A stretch of DNA of 54,443 bases from a virus (taxonomy: Duplodnaviria; Caudoviricetes), in the IMG/VR virus record IMGVR_UViG_3300021379_001249, positions 1 to 54,443 of that record, one strand, 5' to 3'. A program made the translations under genes and the position numbers. The stretch's first letter is position 1; every line of letters starts with the position of its first letter. Below are positions 6,884 to 35,633 of the stretch, in pieces. Below the pieces are notes generated by a model, which had not been told where the DNA came from, did no database searches, and was given only the letters and a program-made list of their open reading frames with translations.

Positions 6884-9800
6884 TCAACGTGCATTGGCAC
6901 CCCCACCAAACAAGTCGATTGATGGCGCTTCTGCCCAAGCTGCGTAGACGTATTTCGTTGTTCCATCTGTATCGTTAGTTCCTGCATTAGTGCCTCTTAA
7001 CTTAAATCCATTTGACAATAAATCTTTTGCATTTCCGCTAAAATCATATTCTGCATTGTTAATACTTGGGTAAAGTTGAAGTGACACAGGATTAGATGGT
7101 TCCCTTACAGAGTCATGCAAAATCCAGTTTTGACTTTCAAGGCATTTGATAATTACTAGTGACGGACGAAAGCCTAACTCAATATAATTACCGTCGCTAT
7201 TTCCATTTCCGGTGTAGGTGCCAAATTTTTGTAGGCCAGGAACATCGTGCCAACAGTAGGCTATGTAATCTTCGTTTTCATTTGTTGAATAACTATGTGC
7301 TGTTTTGAATACTGTAGATGTTGGCCTTCCACTAAATCGCCCTGAGTCTGTACCACTACTTGTAAAAATTAAATATTGATTATCTCCAAGAGCAGAATGA
7401 TAAATGTCCCAATTATAAGTGTTATCTAAGTTTTTTGTTATAATAAAATCAGGTGCCTGTGAAAGCCCATGTGCCACTTCATGAGCACTAGTATCATTAG
7501 GTCCAGTATATTTTATGATACTAAATCCCTGTTTTGTTCCAACAGATGCACCAGCGATAGTGGTATCTCCAGCAGTCAATCCTGCCGCAGCAGCACTTGC
7601 AAAACCCTCATCATCAACATTAAAGGTGTTTTTGTTTCCACCAGCTCTCCAGAACCAACCAACTAAGGGTTCATTATTATCATTTTGACTAGTATCACTT
7701 GCACCACTTATTTGAATGCTTTTATTTTCAAGGAAACTAAAAGAAACAGTTCCCTCAGTTCCTGTACTATTTGAGACTAATCTTTTATTATTACCACGAA
7801 CAGTGTCATAAAGACTGTGCGAATAGGCTTGATTTCTAAACTTAATCCACGCAAAATCAGCATCAATAGGTGCCTGTATTACACGATTGTTAGTTCCATC
7901 ACCAGTCCAAGTAGCAATACCAACATACTGATCAGGGCGTGAAATCACAGTTTCTGGACGTGTATTAGCAGTATTCAGTGGTTGGAAACCATCTGGTGGT
8001 GGGAACTTAAAGGGTTTTTGTCCGAAGTTTATTTCTGCTTTGGCACCACCTCCCCTTAAAGAAATACCAACTGCCCATCTCTGAGATGTTGAAAGGGTTG
8101 AGCTAATATCGCCTTGATCAACTCCGTTGATAATAAATCCTAACTTACCAGTATCTGCATTATATCTAAGTCCTACCACATCTCCAGGAGTGCTCCAAGT
8201 AGTGCCATAAGAAGTAGAAGAGCTATTGTTATACCATTGTGCTTGTGCATCAACTATGACATATCCAGTTGATTGTGCTGCTAAGTCTTTTGTTGAGGCT
8301 AATGGATACCCATCTTCTGAATCATTTAATCCAAAAAGTCCAAATTGAATATCATTATCAGATGCACTCTGTCTACCTTTATGTGTTAACTCAACAAACC
8401 ATTTTCCAGATTCGATTACACCTGTGCAAAGTGTGGTATTCCAATTACTTCCACCGGTTACAAATGTATTTCCATCAGATAATGTGTTATTTCCTCTATT
8501 CAATAAGGGACTAAAAGTATTATATCCAGTTTCTTGTCCACGAACTGTGTTAATGTCAGTGTTGAATGGGTTGAAGTTGGTTGCTGCTGCATCTCCGTTT
8601 GCTGTGATAGTTCCAGGAGTTACGGCAGCAGCAGTCGCTGAACTATTTGACTGACAACACAGAAGTTTTGTGTTGGTTACATTTGTGAGTGGTGCTGCTG
8701 GTGGTGTGAAGTTTGATGTGTAAACTGCAGAACCATTTACAATTCTAACGTTAGAAATGAATCCATTGTAATCATATGTTCCTGTGTCCTCACCACCTAT
8801 TCTTACATTCTCAGTTGTATCATTTAATGACACATTTACATTACTTGTAGTGGATACCTGTGCAACACCATCTACATATAATGTCATCGTGCCACTATTT
8901 TTTACCGCTGCAAGATGAGACCATCTGTTTATGGGAAATGAGGCGGAAGAGGAAATACTATAAGCACTTGATCCATTATACCAATAAAATTGTTCTGTCC
9001 CGTCACTTCCTTGCCCAAACCAAAATGTTCTTGTAGAGTTTCCGCTTCCATATTTTGAAACATAAGTATCGACTGCATTTTCAAATTTATATCTAAAAAA
9101 TTCTATTGTAAAATCATTAGTTCCAAAAGTAAAATCAGAACTATCTGCAATTGATAAATCATCGTTAGTTCCATCAAAACTCACAGCACCATCAGCAATC
9201 TTGGCAAGTTTAGAACTACCACTCACACCTGATGGAGTGTCTGGGAGAATGTCTGGGGAGGTTGCGGGTACTACAAAGTCACTGGTGTATTTTGCTACTC
9301 CTTTGTAGATACGAACATCTTGAAGGTATCCATCTACCAAAAGACTGGTGCTATTATATCCACCACCTACTCTACAGTAACCCTCTGTTGATACTATATT
9401 TGCACTACTAGTATAATCTGATCCTTGCTGTACACCATTAGAAAAACACCTTATCGTACTTCCAGATCTAGTTATTGCTATATGATTCCATTTATCTTTT
9501 GCCCCTTCACTACCAAACGTATTTTCAAATACCCAACTACTATTATATTGATAATTGAACTTAATTCCTTCATCAAATCTTCTTATTACCCATCCACCTT
9601 TATTTGATCCAAGAAAAGCACTATTATTTGCTGTTCCGATTAATTCATTATTATTATCCAAAAAAGCCCAGAGTTCAATCGTAAAATCTCCTGTTCCAAA
9701 ATCAAAACAATTATCACTCTCAGTTACATCTAAATAGTCTCCAGTTCCATCAAATTCAAAACTACCCGAATAAAAATTGCTGCTTTCATTTGCAGCAGCA

Positions 9801-11452: not shown

Positions 11453-11465
11453 TTATCTATCCCCC

Positions 11466-12803
11466 TCAGCTAAAGTTAAGTGCTGCTGTTGTAAGAACTT
11501 GTGTTCCTGCTGCTCCTACTCGATGGACAGTAAATGATAATTGACTTATCGTCCCACTGGCAGTAGGTAATGATGGTTCTGAACCTGACGGGAATAGGAA
11601 GTATGTAGAGAACCCAACAGTTGCAATACCTGTGTTCACAATAGTGATGACATGAGTTGCATACTCTGTGCCACCTTTACAATCAATAGTTGCTAAACCA
11701 GATACATTTACTTTGTGAACATCTTTTGAAAGATCTAATGTGGCAATGGATTGATCAGTTGCGGTAATTGATTCGGTGCTAAGTCCAACTGATATTCCTG
11801 TTAAGTTGCTGCCATCACCTTCAAATGATGTGGCAGTTAATGCACCCGTTGATGAATTAAAGGTAAGATTGGTGCCAGTTTTTGCTTCAAGTCCTGTGCC
11901 GGTTGCATCAGTTGTAAAGAGAACATTACATGAAGTATCACTTGACTCATCTACAACATTAAAACCTGCTGCAATGTTTGATTGAGTAATAACAGAGTTA
12001 CCCATCAGTGAGTGATTAGTACACTGATAGTGAAGAACTGCTGGTGTTGTGTCACTTACTGTAATTTCAGTGTAAGCATTATCAAAGGTTACGCCTGTAG
12101 AGTATAATGTTGTCTTGTCTGCTTCAAGATAAAACTTGAGTGGATGACTACCAGTATTATCGTTAGTAAATCTATATGTTCTACCAGGAGTTAATGTAAT
12201 AACTGGTGCTTGTAAGTTATCAATAACATATCCATTACTGCTACCAGATCCATTGTATCTGTGCGTAGAGTCTTTAGTCGCTACTGTTACTGTGTAAGTA
12301 ACTGTTCCACCACCTGCTTGTCCGAGAGAACCATCATAAGTCAATCTATCCTCAAATGTACCAATACCCGTTACATCAACACCATTTGCAAGAACTTGAA
12401 TACCCTGTTGGGCAGTAATGATACCAACAGAATCAATATGCTCTACATCTTGATAAGTTAATGTACCACCAATGGTTACATTACCGCTAAAAGAACCAGA
12501 TGCTGCTGTTACAGAACCAACGGTGATGTTAGGAGTACCCGTAAGTCCTTGAGCATTTACAGCAAGAGTAGCATTGCTTGCTGTTCCAGTAAGATTACCA
12601 ACAACACCACCGGATGCAGTGGTAACACCAGTAATTTTAACGCCACTTAAAAATGTTGCTTCAGTTGCAGTCTGAATATTATCTGTGCTTGCAACACCCG
12701 TTAAACCTTCTCCACTTCCCACAAAAGAAGACGCGGTAATCACACCCGCTACATTTATATTGCCACTCAGTGGATTTAATAGTTGTACCTTCTTCTGTGA
12801 CAT
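11466..12803 (-). CDS. Tail fibre 'carrier' protein with cupredoxin-like insert
   Basis: Shaft repeats GTLTYQDV..IDSVGIITAQQG; HPLKF..LHYQCTNHSLMG; C-terminal FPSG.EP.L.TA..SF..NFS domain. Confidence 0.75.
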   Translation of the reverse strand: MSQKKVQLLNPLSGNINVAGVITASSFVGSGEGLTGVASTDNIQTATEATFLSGVKITGVTTASGGVVGNLTGTASNATLAVNAQGLTGTPNITVGSVTAASGSFSGNVTIGGTLTYQDVEHIDSVGIITAQQGIQVLANGVDVTGIGTFEDRLTYDGSLGQAGGGTVTYTVTVATKDSTHRYNGSGSSNGYVIDNLQAPVITLTPGRTYRFTNDNTGSHPLKFYLEADKTTLYSTGVTFDNAYTEITVSDTTPAVLHYQCTNHSLMGNSVITQSNIAAGFNVVDESSDTSCNVLFTTDATGTGLEAKTGTNLTFNSSTGALTATSFEGDGSNLTGISVGLSTESITATDQSIATLDLSKDVHKVNVSGLATIDCKGGTEYATHVITIVNTGIATVGFSTYFLFPSGSEPSLPTASGTISQLSFTVHRVGAAGTQVLTTAALNFS

Positions 12804-12831: not shown

Positions 12832-15255
12832 TTAGCGTGCAATGCCGCCATTCGCTTGGAATGGATTTTCAGCAAATGCGGCGTAGATGTAGGTGTTGCC
12901 GCTCAGATTAGGTACAGTGCCACCGCTTGATCTGATCTTGATGCCATTGCTTAAAAAATCGCACCTATCAGTAGTGCTATATTCAGCATTGTTGTTGTTA
13001 GGTTGCAAACCTGTAGTTACAACGTTATCAATATCTCTTGATGAGTCATAGATATTCCAAGGTTGGGTTGCGTCAGCGTTTTTCACGAAAAAGAAAGCCG
13101 GCCTGAATCCTAAATTCAAGAACGGACCATCAGCGTCATTATTCCCTTCATATGTGCCAAAGGCACTATACGATTCGATAGCCTTAAAGCAGAAGGCGAT
13201 GTGATCTCCAGTGTTTGGATCGTAGCTAAATACAGAACTGTTCACAGTCCCAAATGACGTTGTAGTTTCTACGGCGTTTGTTTGATTTAGGCGCATCTGT
13301 TTGCCAGTACCTAATGCACTATGGTAAACATACCAATCCTCTGATCCACCGCTAGCCCGCTTAATCCAAATCATATCGGGGGTATCGCCCAAGCCGTGCC
13401 CCAGAGTTTTAGTGCCTGTCGTCATACTTGGCGCTTGCACAATGGAAAACCCAGCTGTTGTGTTGGCTCTTACATTTGTAGTAAAATTGCCATTAGTGTT
13501 GCTGACCGTTGACGATCCAGCGTCCCAACACCAAGCACAAAATGTCCCGCTGCTTTGGTTTACGTCATCAGAATTGCCTAATGTAAATCCATCGCTGTCA
13601 AAACTTGTCACCATCCCCGTGCCAGTCCCTGGGACGCCAGATGAATTAGTAACAGCAAACTTATTTGCACCTCGTATAGTGTCAAAAATCAAGTTGTTTC
13701 TGGTTGTGTTTCTTTGCTTAATCCAAACAAGGTCTGGGCTGAAAGAAAATTCACTCCGCTCATGTGTTGAACCTGTGCCTGTATAGAGGTCTATGTCAAA
13801 ATAATCCGAACCATCGGCAATAGTAGGTGTAGGCAGTGAAGTTGTCGTAAGACACTTATGATTAGTTGGAGCTGAATGAGAAAATTCACGCTGCCCCCAG
13901 TTTGCAACAACCGTTTGTGCTGCGTTGTTAGCATTGTCTCCTACATAAGGAAAATATGTTCCGCTTGGTAGACTTGTCGTTGCATTGCCTTGTGAAACTC
14001 CATTCTTGTAAAACGCCAACGTACTATTGTCTAGATCCAACGCAACGCCAATAATATCTCCCGTCGTGTAACTATCTCCGTAAGAGGAATCAGCACTGCT
14101 CAACCACTTATTTCCATTGTAACTACTGTAGAAATATGCACCGGCACTGGTTGGACTTGCTGCATCAGGACTTAAAGATCCTAAGGCAACACCAATGGCT
14201 GCGTTTGTATTTCCATCAGCACTTGTGAGTTCAACTTCCCAGTAATATTTTCCACTAGACACACCAATACTTCCAAAAACACCGTCTTTGGGAGAACTTG
14301 TGGTAGCAGCCTGAAGATTGCCGTTTGACAGAGTTACATCGTTGCCTTTGTTAAGAGAATTGAAAACACAGTAGTTCCCGATAACTTCTCCACCGGCACC
14401 GGAGTCAGTGTTCTCAGTATCATTTGTTGGAAAGTCAAACAGAACATCATTACCTGAACCTGCTGCTTCACTAAAACCATTTGCTGTAAAGTTATTGCCA
14501 TTCCCACTAGTGTCGTTGCCAATTGTTCCATCATTTGCAAAATCTAAAAGGTGAAAACCGTTTGTTCCATATGATCCACTATAAGTCGATCTTTGCCATA
14601 CTCCGTTTGAGTCAGCAGCCCCGAATGATCCGGGGGTAAGTTGAGATCCATCAACAAAATGTACATCGGTTATGAGGCCATTCATCACATTTGTGCCAGA
14701 ATTATAACTGATGTAATGAACATGATTTGAATCATTCATGTTGGTGTTGATACTATCACCGGGGAAGTTAGTGCTTGTCTGAAGAGATTGTTCAACACCA
14801 TTTACGTAAATTCTAACCCTGTTATTACTAACACCTTGAGTGGTATCTACTGCACAAACAACATGATACCATGCACTAAAATCTCTAAATACAGCGTCTG
14901 TATAAACATAGAAGTTATCACCCCCATACTGATCAAGGCTAATCCTATAATCTTGTCCGCCACCTGTTCCACGAAATTTTAAAAGAGTGTAGTCACTACC
15001 ACCAGTCGATGCTCTAAACAAACTATCACGGCTGGTATCACCACATCTTTTTACCCAACCACTCCAAGTCCATGTCGTGCGATTAGTTGTGGAACTTGGA
15101 GTGCGATTTAGATAAGTTGAGGTGTCGGTAAAACGAAGTGAACGATTTCCTAAAGTAACACCAGAACTAAGAAGAGCCTGCTGAAAAGCACCACCTCCCA
15201 TTCCACCCATAGTGAGCATGGGTTTTTCTTTCTTGTGCCAATTATTATCTATCAT
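12832..15255 (-). CDS. Adhesin (LamG-like + SPRY-like + C-terminal repeat domain) with KKExP-GMGGG N-terminus
   Basis: Paralogous to the termini of 6884-11452; SGKYYWEV SPRY motif; PDLVWIK repeats; ends NGGIAR. Confidence 0.75.
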   Translation of the reverse strand: MIDNNWHKKEKPMLTMGGMGGGAFQQALLSSGVTLGNRSLRFTDTSTYLNRTPSSTTNRTTWTWSGWVKRCGDTSRDSLFRASTGGSDYTLLKFRGTGGGQDYRISLDQYGGDNFYVYTDAVFRDFSAWYHVVCAVDTTQGVSNNRVRIYVNGVEQSLQTSTNFPGDSINTNMNDSNHVHYISYNSGTNVMNGLITDVHFVDGSQLTPGSFGAADSNGVWQRSTYSGSYGTNGFHLLDFANDGTIGNDTSGNGNNFTANGFSEAAGSGNDVLFDFPTNDTENTDSGAGGEVIGNYCVFNSLNKGNDVTLSNGNLQAATTSSPKDGVFGSIGVSSGKYYWEVELTSADGNTNAAIGVALGSLSPDAASPTSAGAYFYSSYNGNKWLSSADSSYGDSYTTGDIIGVALDLDNSTLAFYKNGVSQGNATTSLPSGTYFPYVGDNANNAAQTVVANWGQREFSHSAPTNHKCLTTTSLPTPTIADGSDYFDIDLYTGTGSTHERSEFSFSPDLVWIKQRNTTRNNLIFDTIRGANKFAVTNSSGVPGTGTGMVTSFDSDGFTLGNSDDVNQSSGTFCAWCWDAGSSTVSNTNGNFTTNVRANTTAGFSIVQAPSMTTGTKTLGHGLGDTPDMIWIKRASGGSEDWYVYHSALGTGKQMRLNQTNAVETTTSFGTVNSSVFSYDPNTGDHIAFCFKAIESYSAFGTYEGNNDADGPFLNLGFRPAFFFVKNADATQPWNIYDSSRDIDNVVTTGLQPNNNNAEYSTTDRCDFLSNGIKIRSSGGTVPNLSGNTYIYAAFAENPFQANGGIAR

Positions 15256-15269
15256 TTTTTACCTCAATA

Positions 15270-16661
15270 TTAAGCGAAGTTTGCAACATTAGCAAGAACT
15301 GTATATGTAGCATCACCTGTTTTAATTATATTGTAAGTATAATAGTCATTTCCTGAACTACCACCTGCAGAAGGAGCACTACCACCATTCCATTTTTCAG
15401 TGACAGCAGATCCATCAATAGTTAGTTGAGCAGAATAACCTGCTGCTGCAGCAGTGGTGATTATGGTAACTGATATAGCATCACCAGTTGCCATTACAGA
15501 GTTTAATGTAGTTGACGAGTTAACTCTAATGTTAGGTGTTGCTGTTGTTGTCTCTGTTGTAGTAAACAGATGTGCCATTCCATCTTCAAGATCAATATTA
15601 GTATTATCGCTTAACTTACCAGCAGTAATATTGATTCTTTCAAGTAGTTCACCATTATTAAAGTGAATACCACCACCTGAGGTGATACGCATTTTTTCCG
15701 ACATCGCACTACCATTATGAGTTAAGAATGCAATATCACCTGTGCGACTTGAGTGACTTTTATTAATAAAGTCAATTTGACTTACAACAAGACCATTCGA
15801 GTTGTATCCTCCTATGTTAGAGAAATTATTATCGGTGGAATTAAGATTGGCAAGAGATAATGCTCCACCAGCATTAGCTGCCAAATTGGTGCTGCTACTG
15901 ACACCTGAAAGACTAACAAATCCGCTACTAAGTCTTGATCCTGCAGTGGTAAGAGCCGTAGTAGTCTTCGCAACTAAAACATTACCGCTTGCATCAAATC
16001 TGGCTACTTCGGATCCCAGTGATCCATTTGACACCGGGAAAAACTTTAGAGCACTAGAAGTAGCACCATCTGATCCAAAAAGTCTATAACCATACTCAGC
16101 ACCAGATGATCCACGAGTAATTTCAACCGAAGCATTTGCTGTTGCATTATTAACGCTTAATTCTGCGTTAGGATTTTCATTTCCGATACCAATCAAACCA
16201 GTAGAAGTTACACGAAGTCTCTCAGTGCCATTAGTGTTTATTGTAAAAGTGCCAGTAGAAGGGAATCTAATAGAAGTATCAGTATCACCAGTGTGCAGAA
16301 TAGAGTCTGCAATAGAAACGTTACTCTTGAATGTGCTTACTCCAGTAACATCAAGTCCATTTGCTAGGACTTGGATACCCTGCTGTGCAGTGATAATACC
16401 AACAGCATCAATATGACTTACATCTTGATAAGTTAATGTTCCGCCAACAGATACGTTACCACTAAAAGCACCAGATGCTGCTGTTACAGAACCAACTGTT
16501 ATGTTTGGAGTACCAGTAAGTCCAGAAGCATTTGTCGCTGTTCCAGTGACATCTCCTGTCAGATTACCAGAAAACGAAGATGCTGTAATAATACCAACAC
16601 TCAAATCTTCAGTTGTTGATAATGCGGTAGTAAAACCAGCTAAGTCTGATATTCTAGACAT
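15270..16661 (-). CDS. Tail fibre 'carrier' protein with conserved C-terminal domain
   Basis: ERLRVTS.G.IGIG fibre repeats; C-term TTATPNI..AAAAGY..IDG..W.GGSAP.AGG.SG.D.Y.Y.IIKT..YTVLA shared with 18119-18898 and 25502-28036. Confidence 0.75.
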   Translation of the reverse strand: MSRISDLAGFTTALSTTEDLSVGIITASSFSGNLTGDVTGTATNASGLTGTPNITVGSVTAASGAFSGNVSVGGTLTYQDVSHIDAVGIITAQQGIQVLANGLDVTGVSTFKSNVSIADSILHTGDTDTSIRFPSTGTFTINTNGTERLRVTSTGLIGIGNENPNAELSVNNATANASVEITRGSSGAEYGYRLFGSDGATSSALKFFPVSNGSLGSEVARFDASGNVLVAKTTTALTTAGSRLSSGFVSLSGVSSSTNLAANAGGALSLANLNSTDNNFSNIGGYNSNGLVVSQIDFINKSHSSRTGDIAFLTHNGSAMSEKMRITSGGGIHFNNGELLERINITAGKLSDNTNIDLEDGMAHLFTTTETTTATPNIRVNSSTTLNSVMATGDAISVTIITTAAAAGYSAQLTIDGSAVTEKWNGGSAPSAGGSSGNDYYTYNIIKTGDATYTVLANVANFA

Positions 16662-18105: not shown

Positions 18106-18118
18106 ATTTTATCTCCTA

Positions 18119-20743: not shown

Positions 20744-20774
20744 TTATGTTCACTCTCTATGGCAACTTTTTTTA

Positions 20775-22553: not shown

Positions 22554-22573
22554 CTGGGCACATTATTTTTAAG

Positions 22574-22579
22574 TATTTA
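22574..22579 (-). promoter_or_regulatory. T4-type late promoter (TAAATA)
   Basis: Overlaps the stop of 22577-24382. Confidence 0.65.
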
Positions 22580-25488: not shown

Positions 25489-25501
25489 ATCTTATCTCCT
25501 A

Positions 25502-28068: not shown

Positions 28069-28074
28069 TATTTA
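28069..28074 (-). promoter_or_regulatory. T4-type late promoter (TAAATA)
   Basis: Overlaps the stop of 28072-29754; upstream of 25502-28036. Confidence 0.65.
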
Positions 28075-29754
28075 TCCCTCAAACAATTCAAAAATTGCAA
28101 ACGCCCTAGTGCTTACGTTGCCATTAGGAGATTGATTTATAACAACTTCAACTTCACCATTACTATATCCACTTCCTCCTCCACCACCACTTCCATCGTT
28201 ACCAGCCGTGCCACCATAAGCTCCAGATCCACCGCCTGCCTGATTGGGAGTACCACCATTTCCACCGTTGTTACGATGTCCAATACCAGGTTTATAACCT
28301 CTCTGTATTATTGGTGTTTGAGACATTTCATTACCATTTACATCACGGAATCTTGATTGTCCTATATCTTCACAAGGAGAGAATCTAGCTTGGAAATAAT
28401 CTGATCCGATCGTACAACCTGATACCCTACCACCTGTATTTGCATCCCAGTTTACACCACCGTAAACATTACCGCCTGGGAAAAAACCAATGACAGGTAA
28501 ACCTCCATCACCATAAGGAATTCCTCCCACTCCACCATCTCCACCGCGATTGTTACGTCCGTTAAAACCAGCTATACCAATACCTCCACCATTACCCCCT
28601 CTACAGTTAGAATTAGCATTAGAACCTTTTCCACCACCTCCGCCGCCACCAAGGGCAACTAAAAGTGTTCCTTTTTTATAGAGATATGCGGCACCTCCTC
28701 CTCCATTAAGTCCTCCGGTTGGTTGACTTTGAGAACCTAACTTGAGAATATATTCAGTATTTCGCTCTAATGTGATATTGAATATGGATATTGCACCTTC
28801 TCCTCCAACAGCAACTTCATTTTTACCAGCCGCCGCTGCTAAAGTCATTTTAATTTTAGTGTCTTTTTCAGGGGTGTGGAATGAATAAACACTGGTAGGG
28901 TTAGATGGATCTACAGTAAGAGTAAGTGATCCATCTGCCAAGTTACTCGTACCATTTCCAAAGAAGTTACCACTACCATCATGATAGTACCATTCTATGA
29001 TTGATCTATTGGCAACCACTTGAAACCCTACGCTGTCAGAGTCCAGTGGAGAATTACCTGCAGTAGGATGACTGATTTTACATCTCATTCCAGTCAAACC
29101 AACTTCCAGATCTGAAATAGTAAGTGTGGGAGTGGTAGCACCACTTACAGTGTCACTATCAGTCAATACTTCATTTCCTCGAATCCACTGATAACTTAAG
29201 TCAGAATCATCAGACACTGATGCGACAACACTAAATGTAGCATCAACTCCTTGTCCCACGATTTGTTCAACAGGTTCTGTTGTAATACTGATAGTTGGAT
29301 TTACGTTAACCAATACATTAGATGTGTCAGTGTCCACCGGTTGATTAACACCATTTCCTGTTGATGCAGCAATGCCAGCAGTAATGGCACCACTTTCAGA
29401 TTGATATGCTGAACCGTTATAGACTGCTCTTAAAAATACCTTTTTACCATCATCAGTAGGACTGACTAAGTTACTCAACGTAAGTTCATTTGTCTGTGCT
29501 CCACTAATCCTATCAGTGGTATCTACGGCAGCAACACCATCAATATACCACTGATATCCTATTGTTCCAGTGTTTGTTACTCTTTCGCCAGGTATTGTTG
29601 GATTATGTTTGAACTCAGCGGTAGCAATACCGGTGAAGGTAACGCTACCACCATCATTAACTGTAGACGATTCTGGTTCAGAAGTGAACCTTAAAAAAGG
29701 CCCGTTTAGATCAGTTGTTGTTTGAGTTACGTTATAGAATCCTAATCCTATCAT
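28072..29754 (-). CDS. Ig-like (x2) + glycine-rich adhesin-like protein
   Basis: Two YQW..GA.T..LT.S Ig-like motifs; C-terminal GGGGGGG/GG.GG-rich domain; ATGA overlap with the upstream gene. Confidence 0.7.
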   Translation of the reverse strand: MIGLGFYNVTQTTTDLNGPFLRFTSEPESSTVNDGGSVTFTGIATAEFKHNPTIPGERVTNTGTIGYQWYIDGVAAVDTTDRISGAQTNELTLSNLVSPTDDGKKVFLRAVYNGSAYQSESGAITAGIAASTGNGVNQPVDTDTSNVLVNVNPTISITTEPVEQIVGQGVDATFSVVASVSDDSDLSYQWIRGNEVLTDSDTVSGATTPTLTISDLEVGLTGMRCKISHPTAGNSPLDSDSVGFQVVANRSIIEWYYHDGSGNFFGNGTSNLADGSLTLTVDPSNPTSVYSFHTPEKDTKIKMTLAAAAGKNEVAVGGEGAISIFNITLERNTEYILKLGSQSQPTGGLNGGGGAAYLYKKGTLLVALGGGGGGGKGSNANSNCRGGNGGGIGIAGFNGRNNRGGDGGVGGIPYGDGGLPVIGFFPGGNVYGGVNWDANTGGRVSGCTIGSDYFQARFSPCEDIGQSRFRDVNGNEMSQTPIIQRGYKPGIGHRNNGGNGGTPNQAGGGSGAYGGTAGNDGSGGGGGSGYSNGEVEVVINQSPNGNVSTRAFAIFELFEG

Positions 29755-32700
29755 GCGAAGTTCTGTCCTCCTACTACACCGAATAATGTTGTGCCGCCAT
29801 CAAAAGTTTTGAATGAATAAATGTCAGTCTTATCAGCGGTTGTTGTGACAATGGGTAAGACACCACCTGCGGGGAACTTGACATCAATATCTGTTCCTCC
29901 ACTGGTTTTAAAAGTTGCAATACCAACAGAGTGTCCTCCAGTGCTATCCTGAGTAATAAGAATCGAGAAGGCAGTAGCACCAGTTGGAGGATTCAGGAGT
30001 GTGAATTGCGATACATCAGCATCGACTGCTAAGGTGAAAGATTGTGCGACAGACAAGTCAATGTTTACATTACCACCAGAGATGTCAAGAACTTCAACAT
30101 ATTCAGAATAAGTCTTAAACTTAGCAGATCCTTCAATGTCTACTTTTGCTCTTGGAGTTCCAGTTCCAAAACCAGTTTGATTACTAGATGTAGAAAGTGC
30201 AGTGCCAACAACAATATTGGTAGCAGTAATAATACCAGTGCGTATCTCACCAGATGTACTATCTAGTTTGTGATTTGCAGTGGTGATAATTCCGCTAACA
30301 TTTACATTAACAACATCAAGTCTTGCATCGAAAATAGCGTTGTTTCTTACCTTCAGATCTGTTGTTCCGGTTCCAGTTGTTCCAACATCAAGTGGGAAGT
30401 GAGGAACAGAAGTTCCAACACCTACGCGAACAAGGTTGTTGGGGAAGATGCCAGTTCCAAGTCCAACCGCAGTGCTGCTAAACAAACTATCATTCTGAAG
30501 GTTTGTAATACCAGAACCATCACCGATAAATTGCGTAGCAGTTATTACGCCAGCGGAGTTTACATTACCAGAGAGATAAGAATCACCTTCTACTCTGAAT
30601 TGGAATGTATTTGCCGCTGTTCCAACACCTGCTCTACCAGATGTATCGACAGAGAACTCAGTGCCACCACTACCAACTTTGAGAACCTTATCGCCAGGTG
30701 TGGTTGTAGCAATACCAACGGTGTCAAAGATTCCAACGCTAAGAGTCTTCTCAAGACTTACATTTCCGAAACGATACCAATCGTTTTCGGTGGTATAAAT
30801 CCAACCAACATATCCACCTCTAGTTGGGTTTGCATTATATACGACATCACCAGGGTTGCCTGCCAGTGAAGGGGTAGCAATACCAACTGTATACTTTCTA
30901 GAAACTGTTGTATCACCTTGTAAGAACAAGGAATTAGACTCAACACCCTTACTTGAGGTAGAGGTAATCTTTTCGTTGAAGATTACAGGGCCATCAAACT
31001 CAGAAACAATGTTTCCGTCAGGGCCACCCTCAACTCTCAGAGAACGACTGATGGATGCTTCAAGAGGAGTAAGTACATCAAATCCGACGCTCACACCGCT
31101 GGTTGAGACATCCTCACCAGTTACAGTAGGAATAGGTGCATCAAAGACTTCTTCTTGTCCAGTTGCAGAACTTACCTTCTTATTACCAACATAGAAGTCA
31201 CCAGCATCATTCATACCAGTATAGACATTTACACCACCATCAAACTTGAGAGACTGTGAAAGAAGTGCTTCTCTAGTGGTGAGATCTCTATCCTGCTTCT
31301 CAGGAAGTGCAGTTGAATAATTACCAGGGCCGTAACCAACATATTCAAATGTATGTCCAGATGCACGAATGATTGAGTTTCTTCTGAATTCAATTGGACG
31401 AACTTTAACTCTCTTAATTACAGAGTTAATCGCATGTGTAGTTGCTCTTGTTCCAAGGACACCTCTGAATACTGAAACAGGGTTACCTGTTACAGTTGTC
31501 TTGACTCTAACAATCTCCTCATCAATCAGCAGATAATCACCGATGTTGATATCAGTATCAGTGACATCCAGAATGTCAATATCAGTTGTTGATGCAGTCA
31601 GAACCGCTGCAGAAATTGTGGTAGTGATACCAGCATAAGTGGTTTGCTGTCTACCACTTAAGTTCTCATTTTCAACAACAACATTACCACCAGCGGACGC
31701 ATAACCGTGAGGGAATACTCTGATGGTTCCAGATGGTGTAGGAGCAACAGTTCCGACACCTATACTGATTTCAAAAGAATTAAGTGCTTCAGTCTTCTTG
31801 ACGATGAAATCACCTCTATAAAGTGATTGTTCAGCACCACCAAGTTCAATCTTATTGTTAACTCTCAGTCCGTGATTTTGAGTTGTGGTAACGACACCAA
31901 CACCAGTTACTTTATTGTAGTTGAAAGCACTTACATTCAGTGCTCTACCAACAACCTGAACAGCGGCAGATGCAAGATCGGTGATTCCAATTCCAGATGC
32001 ACCACTTACAGTTGCAGCAGATGCAACTTGAACTTCCTTCGCAGAACCTGCGGTAACACCGGTAATTCTATACAGAGTGTTGTAAGGATGATTTGTTTCA
32101 GGTTTAGCGTTGATTAATTCTACGGTGTCGCCAGTGTTGTCGTGAATCTTGGTGACAGTGACAATACCAACAGAATATCCAGAAGTTGTTCCAACACCAA
32201 CAATCTGCAGAGAATCTCCTACACTGTATGCACTACCACCGTCCATAATCTTGGCGGCGACAATGTTACCAGAAGAATTAACTTCAATTCTAGCAGTAGC
32301 ATTTTGTCCCTGAGATGTTGCAGCACCAGCAGAGGTTAACTTAGCGTTATAGATGTAACCAGCACTTCCATTACCATAACCAGCACCACTATCAGCGATA
32401 CCGATATTTACAACACGATTGAGTCCGTGATCAATGGTTGAGAAGAACGTATGAGCAGTTCCAGCACCATTGGACTGAACTTCGGTGACACCAAAACCAA
32501 TGTTATAGTCAAATACCTGAGCATTAAGTGTTTCTTTGGTAACACTATTCTGCGGATCATTAACAACTGTCTCGCCAATTGGTGTAGGCAGTGCGAACGA
32601 TGCAGACTGTGTAGGATCACTCTTGGGATTATCTCTGTTTGTTTGAGGATACAGAGTTTGAATATTCTGAGAGAATCTTTCGGTAGAGAAAGGAGAAACA

Positions 32701-35633
32701 GTAGGACTGTTAGAATTATTGATAATCAGCAGATGATAGATACCATCTTGCTCTCCAGCAATGTATCTTTGAATTTGCTGTGAACGATATACCTGATAAG
32801 TTCCTTTCGTTCTAGTCTGAGCGAAAGTAGGCAGACTTGTAGTTCTTGAGGATGTATCGTTGGTGAACGCACCAGGGCCAGAAGTGCTTACAAGTGATAC
32901 GGTGAACTCTCTAGCACTAGTGATACCTGTAACATTGAATCTACCATTAAAACCAGAGTTAGCAGTTCCAACTGGATTGTTAGCACTAACGATATTATTA
33001 ATCTCAACTTGAGAACCAATCTTAAGATTGTGGGGAAGTTCAGTTAAGATATTTGCAACATTGCTGCTCCAGTTAGCTCCAGCGATGAATCTAAAGTCTC
33101 TCTGCTCATTGACATTACCGATGGTTACTGAAGTAGGACTGAAGTATGATGCTACTTCAGTATCAGTTGCTCCGGTTGCATTAGAGGAGTCCTGAATGAT
33201 ATATCCATCAACAGGAGGACGGGCAGAAGTAATACCAGAACCAGAAGGAATTACATAACGTGCTCTGTAAATCGTATCAATGACATTTCTGGTGTCAGGT
33301 TTACGATTGATGAATGTTCTTGGAGTGGCAGCACCAAGAGAGGTGGTTCCAAGTGAAACTAAGGTAGAATAAATGTCATTATCTGTTGATGCAGTGCCAA
33401 CAGTTACATACCACTGCGACTCAGTAGAGTCAAACTGAATGGGGTGTCCAATGTCGCCAGCAACTTTATCAGATACTCTACTTTGAACTCTTAAAATACC
33501 ACCTTTATTATTAATGGTAAGAGCATCACCATTAATCGAATCATTCAGAGTCTTGGCAATCTTAATCTGATCAGTTCCTACGCCAGATGTAATTGCAAAG
33601 TAGAGTTGATTCGATTCTAATCCATCAGGAAGGTGTGCGTTTTCTGCAACGACACGAATGCTTTCACCAGACAGTAAATTGTGAGGAGAGTCAAATGTAA
33701 TCGTATTTGAAGTGATGCTATTGATTCCAGATGTTCTACCAACTTTGTGAATCTTCTGGAAAGTATCCTGAGTTGTTGATAACTCAGTATCAGGCATCAC
33801 AATACGAGCAGAACGATTCGTAGGTGTACCGCTACTATCAGGAATCAGAACGTTCAGAGTGTCGTTCTCTTTTGCACCGAATCTATAACCTTCAATGACA
33901 CTATCAGGAGCGACATCTTGATTAGTTTGGTTATAAAGATAAAGTCTGCTAGTTGATGCAACACCAACTACAGTCTTTTCAACATCAATCGCATTGAACT
34001 CAATTGCGCCTTGTGTAGTTTCAAGTTCTTTAGGAGGAATGATGTGAGTAATGTATCCAACATCATCTCTATTGAATGATGTAGTTTTGAATCCCTTTGA
34101 AACAAGTGCTTTTGCACCAAAGTTGGAGTTAGAGTTGGTAACAGATAAGTCACCACCACTCTCAGTCACAAAGTGATTTGCATAACCAATAGCAAAACAC
34201 GAAACGATTTGAATTACAGAGTCGTTTGATGCCTTGATATGGAAGTTTTCATAATCTGGTTTGAAGACAGCAGAGCTATCCTCATTGATGTTTGCATTTC
34301 CGGCAAATGTTGAGTCCTTATATTCTCCGCTTGATGCATTATACTTAACGAATGCATTTTTATCTTTCTGAAGTCCAATACCCGTAAACTGGGCAACAAC
34401 CATGGACTTAAATCCAAGTGCTTTGCTTCCATCAGCGTGCATACCGCACATACCGAAGACGGAACGCAGAGAGATGTTAAAGATATAAGGAGACGCAGAA
34501 GTTACACTATCAGACTGCAGATCAACCTGAGATCCTGTTACAGTGGGTAATGCATCAGAAGGTGCATTAGATACACTATACTTAAACTGAGTGGTTCCCT
34601 CAGCACTCGTCTCTAATACATCACTAACAACAAATTGTCCGTTGTATGCTTCTGTACCTACATTAGAAATCTTGATTGGAGTATCAACGTCTAATCCAAA
34701 CAGGGCACTTTCAAGAGTGACAGTAATGTCAGTGGTGGCAGTTACACCATCACCTGCCTTGATACTGGTAATTCCGATCGCACCACTCTTGGGGCCAACG
34801 ATACGGAATTCATCAATCTTAGGTTGAATGTCAAGTCCCGAATCAGGATAATCAGGTTGAATCTCTCTACCAGAAGAAGGCCCATACGCTAAACCAACCT
34901 TCTCATAATACATGTCAAGATCAGTTCTTCCAGCATCAAAGTTGCTGATGAATGCATCGTTGATCTTTACGTCGTTCTTACCATCAGCGTACTCAAAACA
35001 AGTAAGTTTATGGTGAGAAAAATTAGGAACGAATGTATTAGTAGTATAATCTTTAAATACGATTCCATTAGGATCACCATCAAAAATAGAGAACTGCCAA
35101 GTGTAGCAAGTACCAGTTACTCTGAATAGAGCAGTTCTTTCAATATTCGCATTTTCAGGATCCGGAACATATTTCGGACGAATCTTAGTTTTACGAAGAT
35201 CTAAACCTACCAGAGATGTTCCTCTAGGTAAAATAACTCCACCATGAACACTGTTAAGCTTATATAAAGCGTTATTTTCTGTTGAGAGATCAAAATTAGT
35301 GGTTAGTGAAAAAGATGGAAAGTCTGAAGAAGTAAGTCCATTTCTCAGTCTAAAGTTACCGGATCCATCAGGAATCCATCCAGGACGGTTATCTACAACG
35401 TGCTCACCAGGATATAAAAGAATCGTAGTCTTACTAAATCTATCGTTATCTAATCCACTCTGATACGAAAATCTAGCTGCCTCAATGAGTGCCCTTTGAA
35501 TCGTTTTAAAAGGACGAGCAAGAGAATTACCCTGATTTTCGATAGAGTCTGTGGCGTCTAAATCGTTAGGATTAACGTAGAGAATGTTGCCACGCGCATT
35601 CTTTAAAAAATTATCTAGACGACTGAGAGGCAT
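29751..35633 (-). CDS. Very large virion structural/fibre protein (1960 aa)
   Basis: MPLSRLDNFLKN..LYV...PFKTIQRALIEAARFSY N-term typical of cyanomyovirus large structural proteins; VGIAT repeats; C-term IDLS..F..ITQD.TGG..FP.G..P..TT.A.K.DI.SF..DGG..G..GQNF. Confidence 0.8.
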   Translation of the reverse strand: MPLSRLDNFLKNARGNILYVNPNDLDATDSIENQGNSLARPFKTIQRALIEAARFSYQSGLDNDRFSKTTILLYPGEHVVDNRPGWIPDGSGNFRLRNGLTSSDFPSFSLTTNFDLSTENNALYKLNSVHGGVILPRGTSLVGLDLRKTKIRPKYVPDPENANIERTALFRVTGTCYTWQFSIFDGDPNGIVFKDYTTNTFVPNFSHHKLTCFEYADGKNDVKINDAFISNFDAGRTDLDMYYEKVGLAYGPSSGREIQPDYPDSGLDIQPKIDEFRIVGPKSGAIGITSIKAGDGVTATTDITVTLESALFGLDVDTPIKISNVGTEAYNGQFVVSDVLETSAEGTTQFKYSVSNAPSDALPTVTGSQVDLQSDSVTSASPYIFNISLRSVFGMCGMHADGSKALGFKSMVVAQFTGIGLQKDKNAFVKYNASSGEYKDSTFAGNANINEDSSAVFKPDYENFHIKASNDSVIQIVSCFAIGYANHFVTESGGDLSVTNSNSNFGAKALVSKGFKTTSFNRDDVGYITHIIPPKELETTQGAIEFNAIDVEKTVVGVASTSRLYLYNQTNQDVAPDSVIEGYRFGAKENDTLNVLIPDSSGTPTNRSARIVMPDTELSTTQDTFQKIHKVGRTSGINSITSNTITFDSPHNLLSGESIRVVAENAHLPDGLESNQLYFAITSGVGTDQIKIAKTLNDSINGDALTINNKGGILRVQSRVSDKVAGDIGHPIQFDSTESQWYVTVGTASTDNDIYSTLVSLGTTSLGAATPRTFINRKPDTRNVIDTIYRARYVIPSGSGITSARPPVDGYIIQDSSNATGATDTEVASYFSPTSVTIGNVNEQRDFRFIAGANWSSNVANILTELPHNLKIGSQVEINNIVSANNPVGTANSGFNGRFNVTGITSAREFTVSLVSTSGPGAFTNDTSSRTTSLPTFAQTRTKGTYQVYRSQQIQRYIAGEQDGIYHLLIINNSNSPTVSPFSTERFSQNIQTLYPQTNRDNPKSDPTQSASFALPTPIGETVVNDPQNSVTKETLNAQVFDYNIGFGVTEVQSNGAGTAHTFFSTIDHGLNRVVNIGIADSGAGYGNGSAGYIYNAKLTSAGAATSQGQNATARIEVNSSGNIVAAKIMDGGSAYSVGDSLQIVGVGTTSGYSVGIVTVTKIHDNTGDTVELINAKPETNHPYNTLYRITGVTAGSAKEVQVASAATVSGASGIGITDLASAAVQVVGRALNVSAFNYNKVTGVGVVTTTQNHGLRVNNKIELGGAEQSLYRGDFIVKKTEALNSFEISIGVGTVAPTPSGTIRVFPHGYASAGGNVVVENENLSGRQQTTYAGITTTISAAVLTASTTDIDILDVTDTDINIGDYLLIDEEIVRVKTTVTGNPVSVFRGVLGTRATTHAINSVIKRVKVRPIEFRRNSIIRASGHTFEYVGYGPGNYSTALPEKQDRDLTTREALLSQSLKFDGGVNVYTGMNDAGDFYVGNKKVSSATGQEEVFDAPIPTVTGEDVSTSGVSVGFDVLTPLEASISRSLRVEGGPDGNIVSEFDGPVIFNEKITSTSSKGVESNSLFLQGDTTVSRKYTVGIATPSLAGNPGDVVYNANPTRGGYVGWIYTTENDWYRFGNVSLEKTLSVGIFDTVGIATTTPGDKVLKVGSGGTEFSVDTSGRAGVGTAANTFQFRVEGDSYLSGNVNSAGVITATQFIGDGSGITNLQNDSLFSSTAVGLGTGIFPNNLVRVGVGTSVPHFPLDVGTTGTGTTDLKVRNNAIFDARLDVVNVNVSGIITTANHKLDSTSGEIRTGIITATNIVVGTALSTSSNQTGFGTGTPRAKVDIEGSAKFKTYSEYVEVLDISGGNVNIDLSVAQSFTLAVDADVSQFTLLNPPTGATAFSILITQDSTGGHSVGIATFKTSGGTDIDVKFPAGGVLPIVTTTADKTDIYSFKTFDGGTTLFGVVGGQNFA

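What the first reader, a model, noticed from the sequence alone, without database searches (positions are those of the whole stretch)
6884..35633. Repeated 'carrier fibre + dedicated tip adhesin' cassettes with a matched socket/plug code
Seen: three fibres (25502-28036, 18119-18898, 15270-16661) end in the same ~130-aa domain (TTATPNI..AAAAGY..IDG..W.GGSAP.AGG.SG.D.Y.Y.I.KT..YTV.A). Each is followed 13-14 nt later by a gene starting with the same peptide, KKE(A/S/K)P..(G/L)..G(M/L)GGG. After that peptide the three bodies differ: a repeat domain alone, a beta-propeller, and LamG+SPRY+repeat domain. Two further fibres (29751-35633, 11466-12803) end in a more distantly similar FP.G..P..T..SF..NF domain and have their own coupled partners with different N-termini. 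Two junctions are nearly identical DNA (TGATAGGAGATAA[A/G]ATATG at 18103-18121 and 25486-25504). Known: T2/T6/S16 gp38 adhesins cap gp37 trimers through a conserved N-terminal anchor. Inference: a plug-and-socket system with five parallel cassettes, allowing interchangeable receptor-binding heads on one virion.
Basis: partly seen in the sequence, partly recalled or inferred. Interest (0 to 1): 0.88.

Follow-up and report, generated by a model that had tools for sequence, protein, structure and literature searches.

The report
Phage fibre-tip domain with paired adhesins
A marine T4-like phage carries several tail-fibre genes that end in one conserved tip domain, each followed by a gene whose short conserved starting peptide is attached to a very different sugar- or surface-binding head, which looks like a widespread clip-on system for exchanging host-recognition heads, although the binding itself is not yet shown.

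Summary
Three minus-strand fibre genes end in one ~140-aa domain (62-67% identical; phrog_5906, no Pfam). Each is followed 13-14 nt later by a gene starting with KKExP-5x-G(L/M)GGG and then an unrelated head.

The pairing holds in IMG/VR in both directions. Of 39 C-terminal domains, 36 are followed by the peptide. A blind DNA pattern for the peptide gave 54 N-terminal matches, and 53 had the domain directly upstream. The peptide sits on 71 heads that fall into 42 BLAST clusters. The domain was C-terminal in 104 of 104 locus hits and in all 150 best database representatives, so no fused form was seen.

Fibres A and E carry more distant versions of the same fold, each with its own conserved downstream N-terminus. 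No cross-type pair was found.

Best reading (about 0.6): a fibre-tip docking domain that holds separately encoded heads by their N-terminal peptide. This works like T2/T6 gp37-gp38 and like conserved-peptide docking in K1-5 and KP32 phages, but it is not homologous to them. Binding, presence in the virion and stoichiometry are inferred, and the one complex prediction gave no verdict. I rate it a new variant of a known kind.

The parts
29751..35633 (-). Fibre A: a 1960-aa tail-fibre protein of the kind at the head of host-recognition gene clusters in marine T4-like phages. The A-type tip domain is its last ~150 aa (29754-30203).
   Evidence: phrog_529 tail fibre, E = 0. Relatives of the tip were found at 64 IMG/VR loci. 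AlphaFold model pLDDT 86.4. The fold is shared with the B-type tip.
28072..29754 (-). Partner A: 560 aa, with an Ig-like domain and a glycine-rich C-terminal part. Its start overlaps the stop of fibre A (ATGA). Its N-terminus carries TTDLNGPFLRF (residues 13-23, about 29686-29718).
   Evidence: Ig_3 below the Pfam cut-off, and phrog_24848. The motif (L/T)(D/E)LNGP recurs in the downstream genes of A-type tips: 46 of 54 by regular expression, plus 7 visible variants.
25502..28036 (-). Fibre B: 844 aa. The B-type tip domain ('socket') lies at 25508-25924.
   Evidence: Profile match E 1.8e-79. phrog_5906 over residues 686-841.
24412..25488 (-). Partner B: 358 aa. N-terminal docking peptide KKEAPIQGLTGLGGG plus linker (residues 1-27, 25408-25488), then DUF7483.
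18119..18898 (-). Fibre C: 259 aa. The B-type tip domain lies at 18122-18550.
   Evidence: Profile match E 8e-77. AlphaFold model of the last 145 aa: pLDDT 91.7, beta-sandwich.
16750..18105 (-). Partner C: 451 aa. N-terminal docking peptide KKESPFLNLLGMGGG (residues 1-27, 18025-18105), then an SBBP beta-propeller.
15270..16661 (-). Fibre D: 463 aa. The B-type tip domain lies at 15273-15680.
   Evidence: Profile match E 2.7e-73. phrog_5906 E 2e-36.
12832..15255 (-). Partner D: 807 aa. N-terminal docking peptide KKEKPMLTMGGMGGG (residues 1-29, 15169-15255), then a first domain homologous to that of partner E, then SPRY and DUF7483.
11466..12803 (-). Fibre E: 445 aa. The E-type tip domain lies at 11469-11858.
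   Evidence: Relatives found at 29 IMG/VR loci, 22 of them examined. hhalign to the A-type tip E 3.8e-6.
6884..11452 (-). Partner E: 1522 aa. A short N-terminal peptide (residues 1-14, 11411-11452), then Laminin_G_3 in three stretches, SPRY below the cut-off, and DUF7483.
   Evidence: Downstream genes of E-type tips start with MG(I/V)A(L/I)PQV.T.DRASGAQVIDGSLKFD.
25489..25501 (-). Intergenic junction B (13 nt) containing a GGAG ribosome-binding site. The equivalent junctions are C at 18106-18118 and D at 15256-15269.

Best explanation
The region is the host-recognition gene cluster of a marine T4-like myovirus. It uses split receptor-binding fibres.

The carrier. This is a fibre, presumably a trimer like other phage fibres, of very variable length. 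It ends in a ~135-aa beta-sandwich tip domain.

The head. The next gene is tightly packed behind the carrier gene and probably translationally coupled. It encodes the receptor-binding head. Its first ~25 residues are a docking peptide with consensus [HFWY]KKE[KS]P[LIFM]xxxxG[MLF]GGG[AV][TA]SL. In distant relatives this shrinks to M(S)P(L/F)(L/F)...GG. A Gly/Ser-rich linker follows, then a lectin-like, beta-propeller or glycine-rich domain.

The joint. The peptide docks non-covalently on the tip domain, so one to three heads hang from each fibre tip. Both sides of the joint are conserved while the shaft and the head are not. Recombination can therefore exchange heads or shafts without breaking assembly.

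Three standards. This genome holds three non-interchangeable joint standards (A, B/C/D and E) and five carrier-head pairs, which should give a virion with several specificities.

Shown: the sequence conservation, the two-way co-occurrence, the type-specific pairing, protein-level selection, the fold, the diversity of heads, and the constant C-terminal position of the domain.

Inferred: the binding itself, trimer state, stoichiometry, presence in the virion, and receptor binding by the heads.
For: 1. In the window, the three tips are 62-67% identical and all three partners carry the peptide.

2. Forward test. A profile scan of IMG/VR gave 32 loci. In 30 of the 30 loci whose stop codon lies inside the locus, the next gene starts -1 to +16 nt later and carries the peptide. 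Over all sources held at that point, 36 of 39 complete C-terminal domains are followed by the loose motif.

3. Reverse test. A blind degenerate DNA pattern for KKExP-5x-G(L/M/F)GGG gave 56 matches in 53 stretches. Of these stretches, 46 lie on contigs not seen before. Of the matches, 54 lie at residues 4-9 of an ORF, and 53 of those 54 have the tip domain within 700 nt upstream. The one exception is the third peptide gene after a single tip fibre.

4. There are 72 unique tip-peptide pairs. Their 71 heads fall into 42 BLAST clusters. Pfam finds DUF7483, SBBP, SPRY, RCC1 and Gly_rich_2 among them.

5. Type-specific pairing. B-type tips are followed by the B-type peptide in 79 of 84 pairs. A-type tips have their own motif in 46 of 54 by regular expression, plus 7 variants. 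E-type tips have theirs in 17 of 21, plus 4 variants. Cross-type pairs: 0.

6. Partners D and E share their first head domain (32% identity, E 6e-21), and the homology starts right after the differing peptides.

7. The invariant Pro and Gly positions use all synonymous codons, so selection acts on the protein and not on the DNA or RNA.

8. The domain family is large: 4272 representatives at E <= 0.001. In the 150 best it ends within 6 residues of the C-terminus in 149, and within 21 residues in the other. In the loci it is C-terminal in 104 of 104 hits. No fused carrier-head form was seen.

9. Cultured phages carry the pair: P-SSM7, S-CAM22, S-MbCM6, Syn30, roseophages CRP-3 and CRP-738, and a freshwater podovirus whose partner is annotated 'tail fiber adhesin gp38'.

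10. The tip model is a confident beta-sandwich (pLDDT 91.7). Its only PDB matches with any phage logic are weak: a Pa223 capsid spike at E 3.6e-3, T4 gp9 at E 0.27 and T4 gp10 at E 0.30.
Against: No direct evidence of binding was obtained, and no solved structure of a relative was found by sequence.

Adjacent genes are inherited together, so co-occurrence and type matching could arise from linkage plus two independent functions.

Exceptions exist. Tip-domain genes without a peptide gene behind them occur in P-SSM7, S-CAM22 and S-MbCM6, where the first of two tandem tip-domain genes is followed by the second, and in L045, where the next gene is a 95-aa ORF. L074 has one tip fibre with three peptide genes. 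CRP-3 has a 199-nt gap.

For types A and E, the conserved downstream N-terminus may be the first strand of a conserved head domain rather than a plug.

Similarity to the T4 gp9/gp10 docking domains is not significant. Pfam finds no family in the tip-bearing proteins.
Confidence: 0.6

Rival explanations
1. Linked modules without mutual binding. The tip domain is simply the terminal fold (or the receptor-binding knob) of the fibre. The N-terminal peptide docks the head somewhere else, for example on the baseplate, on another fibre segment or on a shared adaptor. The two stay adjacent because the conserved DNA on either side of the junction is where recombination exchanges modules.
For: Numbers of tip and peptide genes do not always match: one tip with three peptide genes in L074, and tandem tip genes with one peptide gene in cultured cyanophages. 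The fibres also share other conserved joints, such as GSFSGNVSIGGTLTYQDVTNIDSIGIITA in 8 genes, so conserved linkers are common in this array. The fold is widespread at the ends of many phage fibres.
Against: 53 of 54 blind peptide matches lie directly behind a tip domain, and no cross-type pair occurs. If the peptide docked on a common site elsewhere, peptide genes should also be found away from tip genes. In addition, the same head family would not need different peptides behind different tip types, as seen for partners D and E.
Confidence: 0.22
2. The downstream genes are fibre-assembly chaperones, in the manner of T4 gp38, lambda or Mu Tfa, or Pam3 gp25. They would bind the fibre's C-terminal part to fold and trimerise it and would not be adhesins on the virion.
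For: A chaperone gene directly downstream of its fibre gene, and binding the distal fibre part at 3:3, is established for Pam3 gp24/gp25 (PMC9608196, abstract read). Gene order and tight spacing here fit this.
Against: The partners are 194 to 1522 aa. They carry lectin-like, SPRY, beta-propeller, RCC1, DUF7483 and glycine-rich domains, which are typical of receptor binding. They fall into 42 unrelated clusters while the fibre tip they would fold stays the same. No partner matched a chaperone family in Pfam or PHROGs.
Confidence: 0.08
3. Carrier and partner are made as one polypeptide by read-through, frameshifting or protein splicing, and the conserved junction is the recoding signal.
For: The junction DNA of B and C is 18 of 19 identical.
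Against: B and C have two successive in-frame stops (TGA TAG) followed by a GGAG ribosome-binding site and ATG. Other loci have gaps of -4 to +17 nt in varying frames. The peptide starts with its own Met, and in distant relatives the motif begins at residue 2.
Confidence: 0.02

Closest known systems
T2/T6/S16-type gp37-gp38 (distal long-tail-fibre protein capped by a separately encoded adhesin)
   Same: The adhesin gene lies directly downstream of the distal fibre gene. The adhesin has a conserved N-terminal attachment part and a variable receptor-binding part. C-terminal subtypes of the fibre are 'invariably associated' with one N-terminal subtype of the adhesin, which the authors read as lock-and-key (PMC3157838, passages read). 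Many partners here are glycine-rich (Gly_rich_2 in 5 of 10 tested; one hit to Pfam GP38 below the cut-off).
   Different: No sequence homology: no window partner hits Pfam GP38. The attachment element here is a ~25-aa peptide plus linker rather than a domain. The heads are of many unrelated folds, up to 1522 aa. Several pairs of three standards sit in one genome.
Anchor-branch receptor-binding complexes with conserved N-terminal peptides (K1-5/K1E/SP6 adaptor, KP32- and KP34-like Klebsiella phages, G7C gp66/gp63.1, CBA120 tailspikes)
   Same: A second receptor-binding protein is attached through a short conserved N-terminal peptide (7-11 aa or longer) to a beta-sandwich docking domain on a carrier protein. 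This allows several specificities on one virion (PMC6872550, passages read; PMC8825819, abstract from a search listing).
   Different: In those systems the docking domain is T4 gp10-like, sits near the N-terminus of the carrier close to the tail, and the heads are trimeric depolymerase spikes. Here the domain is always at the C-terminal end of a fibre. It resembles gp9/gp10 only weakly (E 0.27-0.30). The heads look like non-enzymatic binding modules.
T4 long tail fibre joints (gp34-gp35-gp36-gp37)
   Same: Consecutive genes whose products join end to end in gene order, C-terminus to N-terminus (PMC3157838, passage read; otherwise textbook knowledge).
   Different: No homology was detected. In T4 the chain is a single fibre, whereas here there are five parallel two-part units.
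Pam3 gp24-gp25 fibre and chaperone
   Same: The downstream gene product binds the distal part of the fibre (PMC9608196, abstract read).
   Different: gp25 is a dedicated trimeric chaperone with a helical trimerisation domain. The partners here carry receptor-binding-type domains and a conserved short peptide.

Membership tests
phrog_5906 (phage protein family of unknown function; 'sericin 1 precursor-like protein' of cyanomyoviruses) | Profile match over the C-terminal ~130-140 aa | tested here: met
   Fibres B, C and D match at E 5.9e-27, 7.2e-20 and 2e-36. tblastn finds P-SSM7, S-CAM22, S-MbCM6, Syn30 and S-E7 genes, several of them annotated sericin-like.
T-even gp38 adhesin (Pfam PF05268 GP38) | Sequence match to the GP38 profile (glycine-rich motifs and hypervariable segments) | tested here: not met
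   None of the five window partners hits GP38 at E <= 0.01. One of 10 IMG/VR partners tested scores 17.8 bits, below the cut-off of 25.
T-even gp38 adhesin (Pfam PF05268 GP38) | Gene directly downstream of the distal fibre gene, with its N-terminal subtype matched to the fibre's C-terminal subtype | tested here: met
   Gaps of 13-14 nt in the window. Type-specific pairing with 0 cross-type pairs.
T-even gp38 adhesin (Pfam PF05268 GP38) | Protein sits at the fibre tip in the virion and binds the receptor | not testable with these tools
   This needs virion proteomics, cryo-EM or adsorption assays.
T4 gp10-like docking domain with conserved-peptide partners (anchor-branch systems) | Docking domain homologous to T4 gp10 domains 2/3 (or gp9) | tested here: inconclusive
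   Foldseek of the tip model against the PDB gave T4 gp9 (1qex_A) at E 0.27, TM 0.37, and gp10 (2fl8_A) at E 0.30, TM 0.35. No match reached E <= 0.001. Pfam found no family in the tip-bearing proteins.
T4 gp10-like docking domain with conserved-peptide partners (anchor-branch systems) | Partner proteins carry a short conserved N-terminal peptide on otherwise unrelated bodies | tested here: met
   60 of 72 unique partners have the canonical P..G(L/M/F)GGG. The bodies fall into 42 clusters.
T4 gp10-like docking domain with conserved-peptide partners (anchor-branch systems) | Docking domain placed in the N-terminal part of the anchored carrier | tested here: not met
   The domain is C-terminal in 104 of 104 locus hits and in all 150 best representatives.
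Tail fibre assembly chaperones (Tfa, T4 gp38, gp57A, Pam3 gp25) | Profile match of the downstream protein to a chaperone family | tested here: not met
   No such family was found for any partner in Pfam or PHROGs. The only 'fiber protein assembly' hit (phrog_3304, E 8e-6) lies inside fibre B, not in a partner.
DUF7483 (Pfam PF24299) | Profile match above the gathering score | tested here: met
   Partner B scores 142 bits, partner D 323 bits and partner E 249 bits.

The most novel reading that the evidence does not exclude
The tip domain and peptide form a general clip-on standard of marine phages. Each trimeric fibre tip would offer three identical sites. Different monomeric heads, made from one or several downstream genes, would load onto them in mixed sets, so a single fibre could carry up to three specificities. 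One genome would run three non-interchangeable standards (A, B and E) side by side. The joint itself could be a new kind of contact in which the glycine run of the peptide (G-x-GGG) packs against the conserved glycine-rich loop of the tip (W-x-GGSAP-x-GG-x-SG-x-D).
Probability: 0.2. Interest if true: 0.82.

Novelty: new variant of a known kind. Interest (0 to 1): 0.64.

Why it matters
Host recognition in marine T4-like phages of cyanobacteria and SAR11 is poorly understood. Their hypervariable 'host recognition clusters' have been described mainly as lists of unannotated fibre genes (PMC7029224, passages read).

A joint that can be recognised from sequence would change that. The family has 4272 representatives. 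With it one could read which genes form one fibre, which part is carrier and which is head, and how many specificities a virion can carry. This would work directly from metagenomes.

It would also explain how heads of at least 42 unrelated kinds move between fibres. And it would give a natural scaffold for head-swap experiments in cultured cyanophages and roseophages.

In print I found nothing on this domain, motif or pairing. The searches were 'DUF7483' (0 papers), 'sericin' + 'cyanophage' + 'structural protein' (0 papers), and 'cyanophage' + 'tail fiber' + 'glycine-rich' + 'adhesin' (7 papers, none on this going by the titles and abstract openings in the listing). Supplements were closed, and most papers from subscription journals were not searched.

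Tried and rejected
Complex prediction. I submitted three copies of the tip domain (alignment of 64 sequences) with the first 60 aa of the partner (alignment of 64 submitted; the tool used 63 rows). The result was 'no answer': score 0.03 against a mark of 0.32, and the controls were not run. This counts neither for nor against binding.

megablast of 17 kb of the region against GenBank phages found no match.

The first reverse-pattern scan had one N too many and found nothing. I checked it on the held loci and repeated it correctly.

Single-sequence hhalign of the A-type and E-type tips against the B-type profile was not significant (E 0.019 and 0.082). Alignments were needed.

Profile searches against PDB sequences gave only chance-level matches: profilin at E 0.0097 and a Bdellovibrio fibre protein at E 0.0016. 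Partner B had no match.

I considered a residue covariation test between tip and peptide and dropped it. With 72 linked pairs of shared ancestry it cannot separate co-adaptation from co-inheritance.

A private code distinguishing B, C and D from each other was not tested, and the evidence from other contigs leans against it.

I did not test whether the tip domain forms trimers.
Full report
**What the window is.**
The window is a 54,443-base IMG/VR virus record, estimated 29% complete. The genes beside the finding match T4-type tail and replication families in PHROGs: baseplate hub, hub with tail lysozyme, tail tube, tail-tube cap, wedge subunit and single-strand DNA-binding protein. It is therefore a fragment of a T4-like myovirus.

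GC content is 35-42%. No GenBank phage is close at the DNA level.

From 35633 down to 2131 every long ORF lies on the minus strand and looks like a fibre or a binding protein. The first of them, the 1960-aa protein, matches phrog_529 'tail fiber protein' at E = 0. A hypervariable 'host recognition cluster' of fibre genes downstream of a large structural gene has been described in cyanomyophages and pelagimyophages (PMC7029224, passages read).

- Fibres B (25502-28036), C (18119-18898) and D (15270-16661) end in one domain. Pairwise identity is 62-67%. It matches phrog_5906, a family without known function. Pfam has nothing for these proteins.
- The next genes start 13, 13 and 14 nt downstream. 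They begin with KKE(A/S/K)P-5x-G(L/M)GGG.
- Behind the peptide the bodies differ. Partner B is DUF7483. Partner C is an SBBP beta-propeller. Partner D has SPRY and DUF7483, preceded by a domain shared with partner E.
- The two near-identical junctions are confirmed, 18 of 19 bases identical. They consist of two stop codons, a GGAG ribosome-binding site and the start codon. The neighbouring codons differ at many third positions, so this is a conserved translation signal and not recent gene conversion.

**The pairing is general, in both directions.**

*Forward test.* A profile of the three tips scanned against IMG/VR returned 32 loci. In all 30 loci where the fibre's stop codon lies inside the locus, a gene starts -1 to +16 nt later and carries the peptide. 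The other two loci run off the end. With a local HMM and a loose regular expression over 784 ORFs from 36 sources, 36 of 39 complete C-terminal domains had the motif in the next gene. The six other regex hits were unrelated proline-rich or antisense ORFs. A strict form of the motif occurred 16 times at N-termini, always behind a tip, and never in 104,511 residues elsewhere.

*Reverse test.* A degenerate DNA pattern for the peptide alone, scanned blind over IMG/VR, gave 56 matches in 53 stretches. Of those stretches, 46 lie on contigs not seen in the forward scan. Two matches were chance hits. The other 54 lay at residues 4-9 of an ORF, and 53 of them had the tip domain within the 700 nt upstream. 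The single exception, in L074, is the third of three peptide-bearing genes that follow one tip fibre.

*Pairs and heads.* In all I collected 72 unique tip-peptide pairs.
- Their 71 heads fall into 42 single-linkage BLAST clusters.
- Pfam on ten partners from different clusters found Gly_rich_2 in five and RCC1 repeats in one. One had a hit to the T-even GP38 adhesin profile below the cut-off, and three had nothing.
- The carriers in these loci range from 164 to 1248 aa. Among the database representatives they range from 126 to 1633 aa.

**Selection acts on the protein.**
In the 60 of 72 pairs with the canonical motif, the invariant Pro uses all four codons and the Gly positions use three or four codons each. 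The consensus is [HFWY]-K-K-E-[KS]-P-[LIFM]-x4-G-[MLF]-G-G-G-[AV]-[TA]-S-L, followed by a Gly/Ser-rich stretch.

In more distant, cultured phages the peptide shrinks to a core that starts at the initiator Met:

| Phage | Start of the downstream gene |
|---|---|
| P-SSM7 | MSPIFSQFSSGGGG |
| S-CAM22 | MPLYSSFSAGGG |
| S-MbCM6 | MPFFSQLSGG |
| Syn30 | MPLLSSYGLSGG |
| Roseophage CRP-3 | MPFLASFGGGS |
| Roseophage CRP-738 | ..APMLGTLGGGS |
| Freshwater podovirus (partner annotated 'phage tail fiber adhesin gp38') | MPLLQRTGSMG |

The pair therefore crosses phage morphotypes and hosts.

**The tip domain.**
AlphaFold on the 64-sequence alignment gives a confident beta-sandwich (pLDDT 91.7, pTM 0.84).

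No PDB chain matches at E <= 0.001. The best matches are a Pseudomonas phage Pa223 capsid spike (E 3.6e-3), T4 gp9 (E 0.27) and T4 gp10 (E 0.30). gp9 and gp10 are the proteins on which T4 hangs its fibres, which is suggestive, but these matches are too weak to count.

Among predicted viral structures, 121 match at E <= 0.001. They are led by a cyanophage 'sericin 1-like' protein and by many collagen-repeat and tail-fibre proteins.

A profile search of 1.84 billion cluster representatives finds 4272 proteins at E <= 0.001 and 3431 at E <= 1e-10. In the 150 best, the domain ends within 6 residues of the C-terminus in 149 and within 21 residues in one. In my loci it is C-terminal in 104 of 104 hits that reach the end of the model. 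I saw no carrier fused to a head. That fits a need for two separate chains, for instance a trimeric fibre and a monomeric head. The fit is an inference.

**Cassettes A and E.**
The tips of fibre A and fibre E are not alignable with the B-type tip by eye. Profile comparisons link them: B to A at E 1.3e-4 over 121 columns, A to E at E 3.8e-6, and B to E only at E 0.015. The A-type tip also folds as a beta-sandwich (pLDDT 86.4). Its 50 best viral matches share 22 entries with those of the B-type tip.

Each type has its own conserved downstream N-terminus. A-type tips are followed (-4 to +24 nt) by genes with ..T.LDLNGP.LSF... E-type tips are followed (9-14 nt) by genes with MG(I/V)A(L/I)PQV.T.DRASGAQVIDGSLKFD.

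A three-by-three count over all unique pairs gives:

| Tip type | Own motif by regular expression | Other |
|---|---|---|
| B | 79 of 84 | CRP-738 is a visible variant of the motif; four have no peptide gene |
| A | 46 of 54 | seven visible variants; one wrong ORF pick by my script |
| E | 17 of 21 | four variants |

No cross-type pair was found.

One caution applies. For A and E the conserved stretch may belong to the first domain of a conserved head. For E in particular, my regular expression marks the start of the head domain, and the peptide proper is only the ~10-14 residues before it.

The best internal evidence that the peptide, not the head, follows the tip type comes from partners D and E. 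Residues 30-225 of D align with residues 15-211 of E (32% identity, E 6e-21). The residues before that differ. D has the B-type peptide behind a B-type tip, and E has the E-type start behind an E-type tip.

**How it most likely works.**
I commit to a docking model. The fibre's C-terminal beta-sandwich is the site where the N-terminal peptide of the separately made head binds. A flexible Gly/Ser linker then lets the head swing.

The tight gene spacing and the ribosome-binding site suggest coupled synthesis, which would favour loading next to the cognate fibre.

Recombination within the conserved joint explains the variety of shafts and heads.

Every step from 'binds' onwards is inferred. The one complex prediction I could run returned no verdict and is not used as evidence.

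**Exceptions and rivals.**
Tip genes without a peptide gene exist. In P-SSM7, S-CAM22 and S-MbCM6 the first of two tandem tip-domain genes is followed by the second. One case in L045 is followed by a 95-aa ORF. L074 has three peptide genes behind one tip. These cases fit a generic docking standard within a type better than a private code for each cassette.

The main rival is that the two elements are merely linked and the peptide docks elsewhere. It is weakened by the 53 of 54 result and by the D/E comparison, but it is not excluded.

The chaperone rival, modelled on Pam3 gp24/gp25 (PMC9608196, abstract read), fits the gene order. It does not fit the size, domain content and diversity of the partners.

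A recoding or fusion rival is contradicted by the double stops, the variable gaps and frames, and each partner's own start codon.

**Comparison with what is known.**
Functionally this is the gp37-gp38 arrangement of T2/T6-type phages. For those, the matching of gp37 C-terminal and gp38 N-terminal subtypes was read as lock-and-key (PMC3157838). It is also like the conserved-peptide docking of second receptor-binding proteins on T4 gp10-like domains in K1-5, SP6, KP32-like phages and G7C (PMC6872550).

It is not a member of either family by the tests I could run:
- There is no GP38 profile match in the window partners.
- There is no significant gp10 similarity.
- The docking domain sits at the distal C-terminus instead of the proximal N-terminal part.

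It is therefore a new variant of a known kind, defined by a new domain family and a new peptide motif, and it is widespread in marine phages.

**Limits.**
- Many IMG/VR loci are related to each other. I counted unique sequence pairs, not independent evolutionary events.
- The search tools favour close relatives of the window.
- Supplements of papers were closed, and virion proteome tables that might list these proteins could not be seen.
- The earlier-findings store and the look-up of encoding contigs were closed.

Noticed in passing
window 18947-24382 (-) and 2131-5415 (-): There are three tandem paralogues (598, 591 and 601 aa) and two more (543 and 542 aa). They are built of repeats such as VVIAYRD.GNS.YGTA.VGTVSGTSISFG and share a C-terminal ~70 aa (NLTS.NF.GFS.AAY.DGQTATIQ...DDAQSGLT). 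PHROGs found nothing significant for the three tested (18947-20743, 3784-5415, 2131-3759), and Pfam found nothing significant for the two of those tested (18947-20743, 3784-5415). They look like self-contained fibres with their own head, sitting between the split cassettes.
   Followed up: partly
window, 8 fibre genes (for example 18659-18898, 20504-20743, 26219-26458, 5681-5920; all -): A second conserved joint, GSFSGNVSIGGTLTYQDVTNIDSIGIITA(Q/R)QG, occurs in eight fibre genes. It lies near the N-terminus in some and deep inside others. In fibre B, around residue 535, it is preceded by RVRADNFADASGTGAPEF. That stretch resembles the N-terminus of fibre C and of the three paralogues (MS.(L/V)RAD......GTGAP), so fibre B looks like a fusion of two fibre modules.
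   Followed up: partly
L074:1-3885 (IMG/VR contig): One tip-domain fibre is followed by three genes with the docking peptide, one of them degenerate (MFERHIKESPVFTGSRFGIGKGG). A 212-aa ORF with no peptide motif is inserted between the second and third.
   Followed up: partly
L183:3794-4420 (S-MbCM6), L184:3973-4524 (Syn30), L182:5293-5393 (S-CAM22): A gene annotated 2OG-Fe(II) oxygenase lies directly behind the peptide-bearing gene in S-MbCM6 and Syn30, and about 1.5 kb behind it in S-CAM22. Whether it modifies the fibre proteins, for example the invariant proline, is unknown.
   Followed up: no
window 11466-12803 (-), about residues 165-275, and window 6884-11452 (-), about residues 400-505: Fibre E and partner E each contain a stretch with the pattern ..SHPL(K/R)F.. 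then ..Y(Y/Q)CT.H..M... From memory this resembles the ligand pattern of small blue-copper (cupredoxin) domains. Pfam gave no hit for it, so this is only a visual lead.
   Followed up: partly
window 5426-6850 (-): This 474-aa fibre carries the shared joint motif but has a different C-terminus (..DLSNEARGGNDIDGTWGSYTIQEGENDLYLINRRTGKKFKFVLEEIN). It matches several PHROG tail-fibre families. It is followed 10 nt later by the 543-aa paralogue, whose N-terminus MPIFVGSNSDD loosely recalls the minimal MP(L/F).. peptide.
   Followed up: no
L045:3210-4720 (IMG/VR contig): A tip-domain protein of 213 aa is followed by a 95-aa ORF without the peptide. Then comes a second tip-domain protein of 164 aa with a canonical peptide partner of more than 1064 aa. 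That partner holds two DUF7483-like repeats and a beta-propeller-like end.
   Followed up: no
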